A stretch of DNA of 24,322 nucleotides. Origin: a virus (Duplodnaviria; Heunggongvirae; Uroviricota; Caudoviricetes). The DNA lies in IMG/VR virus record IMGVR_UViG_651703075_000001, positions 64,001 to 88,322 of that record; one strand, written 5' to 3'. The position numbers and the translations under genes are program-made. Within the stretch, counting starts at the first letter, position 1. Every line of letters starts with the position of its first letter. Below, piece after piece: positions 19,206 to 22,824 of this stretch. The notes under the pieces are model-generated. The model was not told where the DNA came from and searched no databases. It saw only the letters and a program-made list of their open reading frames with translations.

Positions 19206-19233
19206 TTGACTTTATCTGAAAATGTGGTAAAGT
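19206..19233 (+). promoter_or_regulatory. sigma70 promoter for the tRNA operon
   Basis: TTGACT-N16-TAAAGT with TGn extended -10. Confidence 0.65.
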
Positions 19234-19390: not shown

Positions 19391-19467
19391 TCCGTTCGGT
19401 CCCTCAAGGTGAGGGAGCTTGACTGTTAATCAAGACGTGCCTGGTTCGATTCCAGGGAGCGGAGCCA
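19391..19467 (+). tRNA. tRNA-Asn(GTT)
   Basis: Acceptor TCCGTTC/GAGCGGA, CTTGA-CTGTTAA-TCAAG, CCTGG-TTCGATT-CCAGG, GCCA end. Confidence 0.95.
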
Positions 19468-19524
19468 AAAGAGTAACCTCCACGCATAAGGCCTGGCACT
19501 GCGCACCAGGAGGTTAGTTTCAAC

Positions 19525-19612
19525 GGAGGGGTGGCAGAGCGGTTTAATGCACCGGACTGTAAATCCGGCGTCCGACCGGGCATCGCTGGTTCAAATCCAG
19601 CCCCCTCCACCA
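19525..19612 (+). tRNA. tRNA-Tyr(GTA)
   Basis: GGAGGGG/CCCCTCC acceptor, CCGGA-CTGTAAA-TCCGG, long variable arm, ACCA end. Confidence 0.97.
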
Positions 19613-19615
19613 AAT

Positions 19616-19736
19616 GCTGTGTAAGTTGGACTGTTGCAGTGAAGCGATAGGCTCCCCGGATCGTAAGCCGGTAACGTGGGGATAGAGGGCTCCCACCGCT
19701 GAGCAACAGGAGGTTCGATTCCTCAACACAGCCCCA
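19616..19736 (+). ncRNA. 121-nt tRNA-like RNA: acceptor stem, T-arm and CCA, with a large structured insert replacing the anticodon arm
   Basis: GCTGTGT/ACACAGC-C-CCA; GAGG-TTCGATT-CCTC; CTGTTGC/GCAACAG. Confidence 0.75.
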
Positions 19737-19813
19737 AAACTGCTCCAGGCAGTTCAGCTAGGCTAGGCTTGAGAGGTAGTAGCCCGTTTTTCCAAAACCT
19801 CTCACTTACAATC

Positions 19814-19890
19814 AGGCGTGTGGCGAAAAGGTTTAACGCACTGGACTTTGACTCCAGCATTTGTGGGTTCGAATCCCACCACGTCTGCCA
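19814..19890 (+). tRNA. tRNA-Gln(TTG)
   Basis: AGGCGTG/CACGTCT acceptor, CTGGA-CTTTGAC-TCCAG, GTGGG-TTCGAAT-CCCAC, GCCA end. Confidence 0.95.
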
Positions 19891-19949: not shown

Positions 19950-19978
19950 AGCCCCGGCGATCTTCGCTGGGGCTTTTT
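19950..19978 (+). terminator. intrinsic terminator ending the tRNA operon
   Basis: AGCCCCGGCGA-TCT-TCGCTGGGGCT-TTTT. Confidence 0.85.
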
Positions 19979-20007
19979 ACTTTCTCAACCCGTAATGGAG
20001 GTTGCAA

Positions 20008-20826
20008 ATGACGTTCCAACCCACTCACGCACAAGCAAGCGTGATGTCTGACGATAAGCACAGTATCATCCTATACGCCTCCCATGCAGGCGGCGGTAAG
20101 TCCCACCTCGTAGCTAAGTGGCTCACCGAACCCATGCACGTGGAAGGATATCGAGGCTTGGCAGCCCGGAGAACCATTCCATACCTCACGGGCCCTGGAG
20201 GCCTGGCGCAACAGATAGTAGATGTTGACCCAACTCTGCGGTTCTTTCGAAGAGATTTGATGGTAAGGACTCCAGATCGCAGGTCCTCCATAGTTCTTCG
20301 AGGCATCTCAAACGAGGAAGCCCCTAGAAGCCTGGGAGGATTCGTATTTCAAAGGGCAGCGGTTGACGAAGCCAACCAGGTAGACAGCAGCGCTCTGACT
20401 TACCTGTTGAGCAGACTCAGGAACCCGCAGTGTCCTGAGGTAACTCCCCAGGTTTTGATGACATTCTCTCACGGAGACTATTCCAGCACATTCCTAGACG
20501 CCCTTGTGCGACCCTTCATTGAAAAAGAGGATAGCGCACGAGGACACGGCGGGGTAGGGAGGATTGATCCCAAGAAGAGTGGTCAGACAAGATGGCTCAC
20601 CTTTTTACGAGGGGTGCCGGTTGTCGCAAAGAACCCGGAGTCTCTGATAGACCTCTTGGAATGCCACACAGGGCAAGAGCCAGAAGAAGCCAACCTCATC
20701 CCGTACACCCTGTACTTCCAGCCGGACGTTCACCCGGTTGTGAAAGAACTCTACCCCGAGTACGAATCTCATCTGAAAACCCTCGCATCACCTTTAAGTG
20801 TTCAGATGACTGGCTACTGGGGGTGA
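20008..20826 (+). CDS. truncated terminase large subunit paralog (ATPase domain only)
   Basis: AGGGKS Walker A, GLAARRTIPYLTGPGGL, VDEANQ Walker B, YLLSRLRNP; collinear with the TerL N-terminus; RBS GGAGG before ATG 20008. Confidence 0.85.
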   Translation: MTFQPTHAQASVMSDDKHSIILYASHAGGGKSHLVAKWLTEPMHVEGYRGLAARRTIPYLTGPGGLAQQIVDVDPTLRFFRRDLMVRTPDRRSSIVLRGISNEEAPRSLGGFVFQRAAVDEANQVDSSALTYLLSRLRNPQCPEVTPQVLMTFSHGDYSSTFLDALVRPFIEKEDSARGHGGVGRIDPKKSGQTRWLTFLRGVPVVAKNPESLIDLLECHTGQEPEEANLIPYTLYFQPDVHPVVKELYPEYESHLKTLASPLSVQMTGYWG

Positions 20827-20831
20827 CGAAT

Positions 20832-20855
20832 AGCCCCGCATAGCGGGGCTTTTTT
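20832..20855 (+). terminator. intrinsic terminator
   Basis: AGCCCCGC-ATA-GCGGGGCT-TTTTT. Confidence 0.85.
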
Positions 20856-20898: not shown

Positions 20899-21324
20899 AT
20901 GGCTTATGAAATGACCCCAGAGGATAAGGTCCTCTACGATGCAATCGCTCGAATCGGCGTCCTGGGAGCTATCCAGGCAGGCCTGATGAAGGCAGGGGAT
21001 GGTGGGGAGCCTGCACCGGCACCAACCGTAGATACCCTGGAAGGCGCTGGAGCCACTGGTAAGGCAGTGATGAAAGCTGCGGATGCTGCTACTGCACGAA
21101 CTGCTATTGGAGCAGGAACCTCGAACCTGGCCATCGGTACCAGTGCAAGCACTGCTAAAGCAGGCAACTGGAAACCTGCCTGGGCGGATGTCACCGGAGG
21201 CGATGCAGCCGTTTCTGCGGGTGTTAAGGCTAAGGTGAATTCCGTCGCAGCAGTGGCCGAAGACGCCGAGTTGGCAGCCGTCACTGCCAAGCTTAACGAA
21301 CTGTTAGCTGCCCTAAAGGCATAA
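20899..21324 (+). CDS. head fibre/decoration-like Ala/Gly-rich protein
   Basis: GTSNLAIGTSASTAKAGN and C-terminal AKLNELLAALK; RBS AAGGAG before ATG 20899. Confidence 0.7.
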   Translation: MAYEMTPEDKVLYDAIARIGVLGAIQAGLMKAGDGGEPAPAPTVDTLEGAGATGKAVMKAADAATARTAIGAGTSNLAIGTSASTAKAGNWKPAWADVTGGDAAVSAGVKAKVNSVAAVAEDAELAAVTAKLNELLAALKA

Positions 21325-21339
21325 ACAGGGACTGGGGGC

Positions 21340-21368
21340 TTGACAAAGTTAAGCCCCTAGCATATACT
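21340..21368 (+). promoter_or_regulatory. near-consensus sigma70 promoter for terL, -35 box inside a hairpin
   Basis: TTGACA-N17-TATACT; GGGGCTTGAC-AAA-GTTAAGCCCC. Confidence 0.85.
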
Positions 21369-21405: not shown

Positions 21406-22824
21406 ATGACTAAGACAGTCATCGGTCCTAAGTCTCCGAAGCAGGAAGCGTTTATCAACTCCACTGCGAACATCACCGTGTTCGGTGGAGCTGCCGGGGC
21501 TGGTAAATCCTACCTCGGAGTGATGGACTTTCTAAAGCATGTGAAGCACCCGATGTTCCGGGGCCTGATCACTCGACGGACCACTCCTCAGATTAAGGGC
21601 CCTGGCGGTATCTTGGATAACTGCCTTCAGTTGTACAAGCAGTTTGACAAGAATGTCAAATGGAAGGATAAGGACGGGAAATTCGTCTTCTCCTCGGGAG
21701 CTGAGATTCACCTTCGACACTTTGCCCACATCGACGATAAGGACAACTACCAGGGTCTGGAAATCAACGAATTTCTCGTTGACGAAGGACAGCAATACAC
21801 CCTGGAAATGTTGCTTTACTTGATGTCTCGTATGCGGGGTCCGAAGTGTCCAGAGGTTGAACCTCACATGAAGATCACCTGCAACCCCGATTATAACAGT
21901 CCGCTGCGTAAGTGGCTGACTTGGTACCTGGACCCTGAGACAGGTATCCCGCTCCCAGAAAGGGACGGAATCACTCGGTTCTTCACTATCCAAAACGGAG
22001 ACATGGAGTTCGCTGACACAGCGGAAGAGCTGATTGAAAAGTACAATCTGAAGTCTCCTCCCCTGACTTTCAAGTTCATTTCGGCAAACGTCTACGACAA
22101 CCCTGTCGTGATGGAGATCAACCCCCAGTACGTTGCCTGGCTTGAAGGTTTGAACAGGGTCGAGAAACTTCGACTGCTCCATGGTAGCTGGTTTGCCCGA
22201 GAAGAGGCAAGCGGCTACTTCAAGCGAGAATGGACTCCAATCATTCCGCTCAGGCCTACGGACACCGTGCGACAGGTAAGAGCCTGGGATATCAGCGGTA
22301 CGCTTCCGTCAGACTCCAACAAAGAGCCAGACTGGACAGCGGGTGTATTGATGAGCAAGGGCCGGAGCACGCTATACACAATCGAGGATGTGGTGAGAGA
22401 CCGCCGCCGTATTGGTGGGGTTTTTGAACTGATCCTTGAGACAGCAAGACACGACGGAGCTGACACTACGATCCTGATTCCACGTGATCCAGGAGCGGCA
22501 GGACAGCACCTTGCATGGGACTTTGTTCGCCGCCTGGCAGAGCACGGTTTCCATGCCAGGACCCGTCCAACCAACAAATCAAAGGTCACCCGGTTCGGTC
22601 CTTTTGCCAGTATGGCAGAGGCTGGAGGTGTTCAGGTAGTAGAAGGCCCCTGGAACGAGGCTTACCTGACGGAGCTGGAGGTGTTTGATGGAAGCCGGAA
22701 TGTTAAGGACGATCAGGTGGATGCCACCTCGGACGCCTACACTTATTTGGCATCCGACATCCACATTCCCAACTTCATCCCTCCGGACCTGACCCGACCA
22801 AACCCGCTGGCCATTGAACGATAG
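21406..22824 (+). CDS. terL: terminase large subunit
   Basis: GGAAGAGKS, VDEGQQ, TCNPD coupling motif; C-terminal nuclease with WDISG...DWTA and DDQVDATSDA. Confidence 0.95.
   Translation: MTKTVIGPKSPKQEAFINSTANITVFGGAAGAGKSYLGVMDFLKHVKHPMFRGLITRRTTPQIKGPGGILDNCLQLYKQFDKNVKWKDKDGKFVFSSGAEIHLRHFAHIDDKDNYQGLEINEFLVDEGQQYTLEMLLYLMSRMRGPKCPEVEPHMKITCNPDYNSPLRKWLTWYLDPETGIPLPERDGITRFFTIQNGDMEFADTAEELIEKYNLKSPPLTFKFISANVYDNPVVMEINPQYVAWLEGLNRVEKLRLLHGSWFAREEASGYFKREWTPIIPLRPTDTVRQVRAWDISGTLPSDSNKEPDWTAGVLMSKGRSTLYTIEDVVRDRRRIGGVFELILETARHDGADTTILIPRDPGAAGQHLAWDFVRRLAEHGFHARTRPTNKSKVTRFGPFASMAEAGGVQVVEGPWNEAYLTELEVFDGSRNVKDDQVDATSDAYTYLASDIHIPNFIPPDLTRPNPLAIER

What the first reader, a model, noticed from the sequence alone, without database searches (positions are those of the whole stretch)
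20008..20826. Second, ATPase-only terminase paralog upstream of the intact TerL
Seen: motif-by-motif collinearity with TerL (AGGGKS vs AAGAGKS; RGLAARRTIPYLTGPGGL vs RGLITRRTTPQIKGPGGI; VDEANQ vs VDEGQQ; YLLSRLRNPQCPEVTPQVLMTFSHGD vs YLMSRMRGPKCPEVEPHMKITCNPD). It stops before the nuclease domain and has a degenerate coupling motif (TFSH for TxNP), yet is an intact, diverged ORF with its own RBS and terminator. Established: several Avs (antiviral STAND) sensors are triggered by binding large terminase. Inference: a decoy or antagonist of terminase-sensing immunity, or a regulatory subunit of the packaging motor.
Basis: partly seen in the sequence, partly recalled or inferred. Interest (0 to 1): 0.75.

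Follow-up and report, generated by a model that had tools for sequence, protein, structure and literature searches.

The report
Extra ATPase-only terminase copy in KPP10-like phages
Pseudomonas phage KPP10 and all its close relatives carry, just upstream of their normal DNA-packaging enzyme, a second, intact and selected gene that copies only that enzyme's ATP-binding half; the gene was already noted in print in 2015, its job is still unknown, and it evolves as fast as host-interaction genes.

Summary
ORF 20008-20826 (+) encodes a 272-aa protein collinear with residues 8-262 of the phage's own TerL (21406-22824): BLASTP 28% identity, E 4e-22; profile-profile probability 99.9%. The AF2 model (pLDDT 90) matches TerL ATPase domains. 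It ends one residue after the GxW hinge, so it has no nuclease domain. Walker A, Walker B/catalytic Glu and the invariant arginines are kept. The TCNP motif, invariant in 42 TerLs, reads TFSHG.

The window is phage KPP10 (Nankokuvirus) and the gene is PAK_P3 gp164. The ORF is uninterrupted in 33 of 34 Nankokuvirus records and absent from the sister genus Pakpunavirus. It is not a pseudogene: dN/dS is 0.14 at dS about 0.95 with no indels, and published RNA-seq shows late transcription. Its dN is about 75 times that of TerL, and among late genes only the tail fibre and its assembly protein diverge more.

It is not new. Henry et al. 2015 listed it as "Terminase?" and RefSeq calls it terminase large subunit. 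A standalone TerL-ATPase-like protein, T4 vs.8, is also described, and it activates EcAvs2 rather than blocking it. This scan has found nuclease-less terminase ATPase paralogs before on other DNA (P1-like phages, a megaphage, uncultured phages).

Function is unresolved: TerL look-alike in phage-host conflict (about 0.35) or packaging accessory (about 0.3).

The parts
19950..19974 (+). Intrinsic terminator closing the tRNA-Asn/Tyr/Gln cluster, 33 nt before the paralog's start. No sigma70-like promoter lies between it and the ATG.
19997..20001 (+). Shine-Dalgarno GGAGG, 6 nt upstream of the ATG.
   Evidence: read directly
20008..20826 (+). CDS of the 272-aa TerL ATPase-domain-only paralog (KPP10_1, PAK_P3 gp164, phrog_15848).
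20083..20103 (+). Walker A / P-loop codons H26-A-G-G-G-K31-S32, identical in all alleles.
20365..20370 (+). Walker B Asp120 and catalytic Glu121, kept in all alleles. E121 is invariant in the 48-sequence alignment.
20461..20475 (+). T152-F-S-H-G156, which replaces the TCNP (motif III, coupling) element whose N-P is invariant in 42 TerLs. The replacement is conserved in both paralog alleles.
20832..20850 (+). Intrinsic terminator (8-bp GC-rich stem plus T-run) 5 nt after the stop codon.
20899..21324 (+). Context: head-fibre-like virion protein (phrog_1954). Like the paralog it is specific to Nankokuvirus and absent from Pakpunavirus. It was found in PAK_P3 virions by mass spectrometry.
21340..21368 (+). 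Context: strong sigma70-like promoter (TTGACA-17-TATACT) immediately before TerL.
21406..22824 (+). Context: intact full-length TerL (472 aa; Terminase_6N plus Terminase_6C), the template of the paralog.

Best explanation
SHOWN. This is a real, late-transcribed accessory gene of KPP10/PAK_P3-like phages (genus Nankokuvirus). It encodes a complete TerL ATPase domain (nucleotide-binding core plus lid, ending at the hinge) and nothing else. It keeps the ATP-binding and hydrolysis residues: the P-loop Lys, the Walker B Asp-Glu, and invariant Arg54, Arg136 and Arg138. It has lost the TCNP motif III, the invariant Asn of the DNP motif, the nuclease domain and the TerL C-terminus. It is compatible with a duplication of the resident TerL's 5' half followed by very fast divergence. 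It is under purifying selection, yet it is one of the fastest-evolving genes of the late region, and its allele type is uncoupled from the TerL, portal and terminal-repeat types.

INFERRED. The protein can load ATP and perhaps hydrolyse it. It cannot cut DNA, and it probably cannot couple hydrolysis to DNA translocation or sit on the portal as TerL does. The most likely role is an ATP-loaded look-alike of the TerL ATPase domain. It would bind a variable partner that otherwise engages TerL, such as a host terminase-directed immune sensor or inhibitor, or a competing mobile element's factor. In that role it would modulate what happens to TerL, not pump DNA itself.
For: Homology and fold; AF2 pLDDT 90.2; Foldseek top PDB hits are the P74-26, Sf6, D6E, HK97 and T4 TerL ATPase domains; BFVD full-length TerLs match at TMq 0.80-0.83 over all 272 residues.

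Catalytic set kept and motif III lost.

Accessory status: the gene is present in all 34 Nankokuvirus records. Pakpunavirus K8 goes straight from the tRNA array to TerL. Only 3 clusters appear among 5.8e9 proteins. An exhaustive phmmer of 1.84e9 representatives finds no relative closer than full-length TerLs at E >= 3.8e-13.

Selection: KPP10 vs LSL4/Ab03 gives dN 0.13, dS 0.95, omega 0.14 with no indels. TerL in the same pairs gives dN 0-0.0018, omega <= 0.01.

Conflict-like evolution: LSL4 is 99-100% identical to KPP10 in the flanks and 100% identical in TerL protein, but 78% (nt) in this gene. Among the late-region genes compared between KPP10 and Ab03, only the tail fibre and its assembly protein have higher dN. 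In the KPP10 vs LSL4 scan, the paralog and a tail-fibre gene are the two most divergent late cassettes.

No co-variation: the paralog allele does not track the terminal-repeat region, TerL or portal.

Late expression: PAK_P3 gp164 has log2FC 6.4 late vs early (PMC4933390 suppl.). It was not among the virion proteins found by MS, whereas the adjacent head fibre was.

Background: the TerL ATPase domain is a direct target of Avs2, Avs3 and Upx (PMC13601566).
Against: No binding or phenotype data exist for this protein. Published assays show that isolated TerL ATPase domains and T4 vs.8 activate EcAvs2 and Upx rather than block them, so an extra ATPase domain could be a liability rather than a shield. 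In PAK_P3 the paralog's mRNA is about 6-fold less dense than TerL's late in infection. At 3.5 min it is about 40-fold lower in counts, so it does not precede TerL. Strict retention of the catalytic Glu and the arginines suggests real enzymology, which a passive mimic would not obviously need. High dS may partly reflect old alleles moved by recombination rather than an arms race. Small terminases also evolve fast, so the rate alone does not exclude a packaging role.
Confidence: 0.35

Rival explanations
1. Packaging accessory. The paralog works with the terminase itself, either as an ATP-dependent regulatory or initiation subunit or as a functional stand-in for the missing small terminase. This is what Henry et al. 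2015 proposed.
For: It is the first protein gene of the packaging/structural block, 580 nt upstream of TerL, and is expressed late with it. The full nucleotide-site residue set, including the invariant arginines, is kept in both alleles at dS about 1. No TerS is recognisable among neighbouring ORFs or, according to the authors, anywhere in either genus. TerS proteins are typically fast-evolving (general knowledge).
Against: The sister genus, which has a 60%-identical TerL and also has terminal repeats, lacks it. TerL is 100% identical between phages whose paralogs differ at 21% of residues. The allele does not track the terminal-repeat sequence in LSL4. Motif III is lost. The protein has the ASCE ATPase fold rather than a TerS-type fold. 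It is insulated between two terminators and has lower mRNA than TerL.
Confidence: 0.3
2. An ATPase re-used for a job unrelated to TerL's partners, for example nucleic-acid remodelling linked to the adjacent tRNA/sRNA cluster, or to replication or recombination.
For: The catalytic residues are intact. The gene sits directly after the tRNA/sRNA operon, apparently with no promoter of its own, so it would be transcribed by read-through. Weaker Foldseek hits include the helicase-like ATPase domains of NAT10/TmcA, RecD and PhoH2, E 1e-4 to 1e-5.
Against: The similarity to TerL is collinear over the whole domain, lid included, and is far stronger than to any other ATPase. No extra domain that could bind a new substrate is present.
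Confidence: 0.1
3. A decaying or functionless duplicate (pseudogene or passenger).
For: One deposited record annotates only its last 60 codons. The protein fails Pfam's terminase thresholds. Motif III is degenerate.
Against: The ORF is uninterrupted in 33 of 34 records, and the 34th is cut by the record start. There are 76 non-synonymous against 105 synonymous differences, no indel, omega 0.14. Functional motifs are invariant between alleles. The AF2 model is confident. It is transcribed late.
Confidence: 0.03

Closest known systems
ATPase domain of the phage's own large terminase TerL (window 21406-22824; Pfam Terminase_6N, phrog_979; solved analogues P74-26, Sf6 gp2, D6E, HK97, T4 gp17)
   Same: Same fold over all 272 residues. 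Same order of motifs. P-loop, Walker B Asp-Glu, the invariant arginines and the G-x-W hinge are all kept.
   Different: No nuclease domain and no C-terminal tail. TCNP is replaced by TFSHG and DNP by VHP. Only 28% identical. The stem branch is 2.98 substitutions per site, against 0.2-0.8 for TerLs. dN is about 75 times that of TerL. It scores below the Pfam cut-offs.
T4 vs.8 (phrog_1488), a standalone TerL-ATPase-like protein reported by Evans et al. 2026 (PMC13601566)
   Same: A phage-encoded, nuclease-less protein with a TerL-ATPase-like fold and Walker A/B motifs, present alongside an intact TerL, with unknown function.
   Different: No detectable sequence similarity to the KPP10 protein, so the origin is independent. 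vs.8 is 219 aa and lies in a non-structural gene region of T4. vs.8 has been shown to be toxic with EcAvs2; nothing comparable has been tested for the KPP10 protein.
Family 201 'Terminase?' of Henry et al. 2015 (KPP10_1, PAK_P30165 in the old numbering, now gp164); RefSeq 'terminase large subunit'
   Same: It is this very gene. Its terminase-like sequence and its HHpred similarity to the Sf6 and T4 terminases were reported, and a small-terminase role was suggested.
   Different: The paper does not describe the domain boundary, the motif III loss, the selection regime or the cassette-like divergence. All of these were established here.
Nuclease-less TerL/PacB ATPase paralogs noted earlier in this scan (P1-like 'dead PacB' paralogs, a megaphage copy, mini-copies beside terL in uncultured phages)
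   Same: A second, selected, nuclease-less copy of the terminase ATPase next to or near an intact terminase. Some are also swapped between very different versions in near-identical backbones (unverified notes).
   Different: According to those notes, the P1-like and megaphage copies have lost P-loop or catalytic residues and some gained extra domains. The KPP10 protein keeps the catalytic set and has no added domain. Homology between these families was not tested here.
Small terminase TerS
   Same: Position next to TerL in the packaging module, fast evolution, and the authors' proposal.
   Different: ASCE ATPase fold of 272 aa rather than a small oligomeric DNA-binding protein. No TerS family hit.

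Membership tests
TerL ATPase domain (Terminase_6N-type clade) | Significant sequence/profile homology, collinear over the whole ATPase domain | tested here: met
   BLASTP E 4e-22. phrog_979 E 1.2e-23. hhalign probability 99.9%, E 3.5e-33, over residues 2-266.
TerL ATPase domain (Terminase_6N-type clade) | Pfam curated gathering threshold for a terminase N-terminal family | tested here: not met
   Only Terminase_3 at 13.9 bits against a cut-off of 23.2, and no Terminase_6N hit. No NCBIfam hit.
TerL ATPase domain (Terminase_6N-type clade) | ASCE fold with lid subdomain, matching solved TerL ATPase domains | tested here: met
   AF2 pLDDT 90.2. Foldseek PDB hits 7ks4, 4iei, 5oe8, 6z6d and 2o0h at probability 1.0. 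BFVD TerLs at TMq 0.80-0.83.
TerL ATPase domain (Terminase_6N-type clade) | Walker A GxxGxGK[ST], Walker B hhhhDE with catalytic Glu, and the invariant arginines | tested here: met
   G28, G30, K31, S32, R54, D120, E121, R136 and R138 are retained in all alleles.
TerL ATPase domain (Terminase_6N-type clade) | Motif III / C-motif TCNP (N-P invariant in 42 TerLs) and Asn of the DNP motif | tested here: not met
   TFSHG replaces TCNP and VHP replaces DNP in every allele.
Functional large terminase (TerL holoenzyme subunit) | C-terminal RNase H-like nuclease domain | tested here: not met
   The protein stops one residue after the hinge Trp. The only nuclease domain in the genome is TerL's.
Functional large terminase (TerL holoenzyme subunit) | ATP hydrolysis coupled to DNA translocation on the portal | not testable with these tools
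Small terminase (TerS) | Small oligomeric DNA-binding protein of a TerS family | tested here: not met
   No TerS Pfam or PHROG hit, and the fold is an ASCE ATPase.
T4 vs.8-like proteins (phrog_1488) | Sequence membership | tested here: not met
   BLASTP finds no significant alignment. vs.8 hits phrog_1488, which the KPP10 protein does not hit.
Anti-defence decoy or inhibitor of terminase sensors (Avs1-3, Upx) | Binds the sensor and blocks activation by TerL | not testable with these tools
There is no PADLOC hit. The literature shows ATPase-only proteins activating EcAvs2 and Upx.
Pseudogene | Frameshifts or stops in relatives, and dN/dS near 1 | tested here: not met
   Uninterrupted in 33 of 34 records, the 34th being cut by the record start. 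omega 0.14-0.20.

The most novel reading that the evidence does not exclude
The paralog is an ATP-loaded molecular mimic of the TerL ATPase domain that the phage uses against terminase-directed immunity (Avs1-3/Upx-type sensors) or against terminase-hijacking satellites. It would occupy the sensor or inhibitor non-productively or divert it. If so, it would be the first counter-defence protein derived by duplication from the very protein that the host senses. Its two deeply diverged alleles would then reflect matching to different host sensor variants.
Probability: 0.15. Interest if true: 0.8.

Novelty: already known. Interest (0 to 1): 0.4.

Why it matters
Large terminase is one of the few near-universal phage proteins that bacterial immune sensors read directly, and the ATPase half alone is enough to be recognised. 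Nuclease-less ATPase copies of terminase now turn up in several unrelated phage groups: T4 vs.8, P1-like phages, megaphages and this genus. None has a known function. The KPP10/PAK_P3 copy is a good test case for three reasons. It keeps a seemingly working ATP site. It exists as two old alleles in otherwise near-identical phages. It also belongs to a well-studied therapeutic model phage with published transcriptomes. Finding out whether it helps packaging, triggers immunity or blunts it would show what this recurring class of genes does. It would also matter for predicting the host range of therapeutic Pseudomonas phages. As a sequence observation it is not new.

Tried and rejected
1. Single-sequence AF2 of the paralog gave pLDDT 32.7 and was useless. 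It was repeated with a 48-row alignment.
No statement on binding is made.
4. The ONT-cappable-seq paper has no supplement held as text, so no mapped TSS or TTS for this gene could be read.
5. phmmer against PDB sequences gave nothing for either protein. Fold search was needed.
6. The maximum-likelihood tree could not place the paralog: its stem is 2.98 substitutions per site and it falls in a polytomy. The AU test does not reject it as sister to the resident TerL (p 0.57; the constrained tree is 1.8 lnL better). An in-lineage duplication is therefore allowed but not proven.
7. Pseudogene reading: rejected.
8. A second split terminase, with a nuclease half elsewhere: rejected.
9. Homology to T4 vs.8: rejected.
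10. Co-variation of the paralog allele with the terminal-repeat sequence, as a TerS-like recognition test: not seen in the one informative recombinant, LSL4. This is weak evidence because the actual cut or recognition site is unknown.
11. PADLOC and NCBIfam: no hits.
12. The automated ORF set contains some spurious antisense ORFs (omega > 1). These were ignored when ranking.

Full report
WHAT THE WINDOW IS. The window is bases 64001-88322 of an 88,322-bp virus record. Its nearest public relatives are PAK_P3/KPP10-like Pseudomonas aeruginosa myoviruses of the genus Nankokuvirus, at up to 99.7% identity over 3.7 kb. Around the finding the + strand reads as follows:
- three small ORFs of unknown function
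- a promoter-like site at 19206-19233
- tRNA-Asn, tRNA-Tyr and tRNA-Gln at 19391-19890
- a terminator at 19950-19974
- the ORF of the finding at 20008-20826
- a terminator at 20832-20850
- a head-fibre-like virion protein gene at 20899-21324
- a strong sigma70-like promoter at 21340-21368
- TerL at 21406-22824
- the portal gene

CHECK OF THE OBSERVATION. The 272-aa product aligns with the window's own 472-aa TerL at 28% identity, E 4e-22, covering TerL residues 8-249. A profile of the three known paralog variants matches a profile of 42 TerLs with probability 99.9% (E 3.5e-33), paralog 2-266 on TerL profile 10-254. A single-sequence fold failed. With a 48-row alignment AF2 gives pLDDT 90.2 and pTM 0.89. 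The model's best PDB matches are the ATPase domains or full chains of the P74-26, Sf6, D6E, HK97 and T4 large terminases. In BFVD, full-length TerLs match the entire 272 residues at TMq 0.80-0.83. The protein ends one residue after the G-x-W (G269, W271) that is nearly invariant in TerLs and precedes the nuclease domain. Pfam places TerL's nuclease domain at 293-446. The genome holds no second nuclease domain.

ACTIVE-SITE ANATOMY. In the 48-sequence alignment the only invariant columns are R54, E121 and R138. G28, G30, K31, D120 and R136 are at least 90% conserved. The paralog keeps all of these in both allele classes. The exception is motif III. The N-P of TCNP is invariant in 42 TerLs, as is the Asn of a downstream DNP motif. 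The paralog has TFSHG and VHP at these places, and the replacements are themselves conserved between alleles. From general knowledge of ASCE translocases and of T4 gp17 C-motif mutants, which was not tested here, this motif links hydrolysis to movement. My inference is that the protein can load ATP and perhaps hydrolyse it, but is not a translocating or DNA-cutting subunit.

DISTRIBUTION. tblastn finds the gene in 34 of 34 Nankokuvirus records. In 33 it is an uninterrupted 1-272 match at 78.7-100% identity. The 34th record merely starts inside the gene. One deposited annotation (Ab03) calls only the last 60 codons, although the ORF is whole. In every other phage the only match is that phage's own TerL, at about 28% identity. 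The sister genus Pakpunavirus (K8) runs from its tRNA array straight into TerL, with neither the paralog nor the head-fibre gene. Its TerL is 60% identical to KPP10's. Among 5.8 billion clustered proteins there are only three clusters of this family. An exhaustive phmmer of 1.84 billion representatives finds nothing between the family itself and ordinary full-length TerLs at E >= 3.8e-13. PHROGs already holds the family as phrog_15848, labelled 'terminase large subunit'.

ORIGIN. In a maximum-likelihood tree of ATPase domains the paralog clade sits on a stem of 2.98 substitutions per site, and its position is unresolved. An AU test does not reject it as sister to the resident Nankokuvirus TerL (p 0.57; the constrained tree is slightly better). 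A duplication of the resident TerL's 5' half after the split from Pakpunavirus, followed by very fast divergence, is therefore allowed but not shown.

SELECTION AND POPULATION PATTERN. There are two allele classes. Type A occurs in KPP10, PAK_P3 and the RP and Epa phages. Type B occurs in the Ab03 group and in LSL4. Between them there are 76 non-synonymous and 105 synonymous differences and no indel (dN 0.133, dS 0.95, omega 0.14). Within classes omega is 0.20-0.25. For TerL the same pairs give dN 0-0.0018 and omega <= 0.01, and the KPP10 and LSL4 TerL proteins are identical. Sliding identity shows that the divergence is confined to the ORF. The flanks are 99-100% identical in LSL4 and 94-100% in Ab03, while the gene drops to 64-89%, lowest in its 3' half. 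The lid half (residues 161-272) is 69% identical with synonymous sites near saturation, whereas the core half is 87% identical. Genome-wide, KPP10 and LSL4 are 95.8% identical. In the late region the two most divergent cassettes are this gene and a tail-fibre gene. LSL4 is a KPP10-like backbone with several Ab03-like patches, of which this gene is one. Among the KPP10 vs Ab03 orthologues of the late region, only the tail fibre (dN 0.235) and its assembly protein (0.333) exceed the paralog (0.136). Typical structural genes have dN 0-0.02. LSL4's terminal-repeat region is KPP10-like although its paralog is Ab03-like. The gene is therefore constrained, so it is not a pseudogene. It nevertheless behaves like a swappable, fast-evolving host-interaction gene, and its type is uncoupled from the TerL, portal and genome-end types.

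EXPRESSION. In published PAK_P3 RNA-seq the orthologue gp164 (96% identical) is classed as a late gene, with log2 fold change 6.4. Normalised counts are about 25,000-55,000 at 13 min, against 288,000-583,000 for TerL, which is roughly 6-fold less per nucleotide. At 3.5 min it has 240-680 counts against 12,000-28,000 for TerL. An early antisense RNA (as_20) covers its start (PMC4933390 supplement; annotation). No sigma70-like promoter lies between the upstream terminator and the ATG, so transcription probably reads through from the tRNA unit or uses an unrecognised late promoter. In PAK_P3 virion mass spectrometry the neighbouring head-fibre protein was detected, and this protein is not among those reported (PMC4309531).

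WHAT WAS ALREADY KNOWN. Henry et al. 2015 (PMC4309531, S1 Text and family table) list this gene as family 201, 'Terminase?'. They note its distant similarity to terminases and its HHpred similarity to the Sf6 and T4 terminases, and they suggest it might act as the small terminase. RefSeq and some submitters label it 'terminase large subunit'. Evans et al. 2026 (PMC13601566) show that TerL ATPase domains alone activate EcAvs2 and Upx. They also show that T4 vs.8, a standalone TerL-ATPase-like protein, is toxic with EcAvs2. vs.8 is not detectably related in sequence to the KPP10 protein. Earlier notes of this scan describe nuclease-less terminase ATPase paralogs in P1-like phages, a megaphage and uncultured phages. 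Those notes are unverified leads. The Atlas also holds sizeable clusters of 220-280-aa terminase N-terminal-domain proteins. The entity, and the kind it belongs to, are thus not new. What is added here is the exact domain boundary, the intact catalytic set with a lost motif III, the selection regime and the cassette-like divergence.

HOW IT MOST LIKELY WORKS. Shown: this is an intact, late-transcribed, selected, genus-specific, ATPase-domain-only TerL paralog. Inferred: it binds ATP but does not pump or cut DNA. I rank a 'TerL look-alike acting at a conflict interface' first, at about 0.35. The reasons are that the gene is dispensable for the shared packaging design, that it evolves like the tail fibre, that it is uncoupled from TerL, and that the TerL ATPase domain is a documented immune target. 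The published trigger behaviour of ATPase-only proteins and the paralog's later and lower transcription count against a simple shield. A packaging accessory or TerS-like role comes second, at about 0.3. It is favoured by position, timing and the retained catalytic residues. It is disfavoured by absence from the sister genus and by the lack of co-variation with TerL or the terminal repeat. An unrelated ATPase role (about 0.1) and a decaying duplicate (about 0.03) follow. The remainder is unassigned.

VERDICT. Novelty is low because the gene and the kind are in print. Interest is moderate because the function of this recurring class is unknown and is directly testable in a model therapeutic phage.

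Noticed in passing
L004 2845-3024 (Ab03 ORF55) versus L004 2206-3024: The Ab03 GenBank record annotates only the last 60 codons of the paralog although the 272-codon ORF is intact. phrog_33771 (59 positions, matching residues 214-272) looks like a family built from such truncated calls.
   Followed up: partly
window 21340-21368: There is a near-consensus sigma70 promoter (TTGACA-17-TATACT) directly before TerL. In PAK_P3 RNA-seq, TerL already has 12,000-28,000 normalised counts at 3.5 min, unlike its neighbours, and antisense RNAs are annotated over TerL in related records.
   Followed up: partly
window 20899-21324: The head-fibre-like gene (phrog_1954) is, like the paralog, specific to Nankokuvirus. 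Together they form a two-gene insertion between the tRNAs and TerL relative to Pakpunavirus. It shows dS 0.74 but dN/dS 0.03 against Ab03.
   Followed up: partly
L010/L011 (LSL4 whole genome) versus genome G000 and Ab03: LSL4 is a KPP10/PAK_P3-like backbone carrying Ab03-like patches. These are the ligase region (2.7-3.4 kb), the paralog (8.7-9.6 kb), baseplate wedge and tail-fibre N-terminus (26.8-29.8 kb) and several early genes.
   Followed up: partly
P0009: A 4306-aa metagenomic protein matches residues 71-124 of the paralog in 12 separate stretches (E 3.7e-9). It could be a repeated module or a compositional artefact.
   Followed up: no
window 20008-20160, minus strand (PAK_P3 as_20, 86650-86850 of KC862299): A published early-specific antisense RNA starts about 150 nt inside the paralog and runs across its start codon to the upstream terminator.
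   Followed up: no
phrog_9526 and phrog_9453: TerL of this clade matches one PHROG with its N-terminal half (3-264) and another with its C-terminal half (261-458). Some related phages may therefore carry or annotate TerL as two separate ORFs (split, intron-bearing or frameshifted).
   Followed up: no
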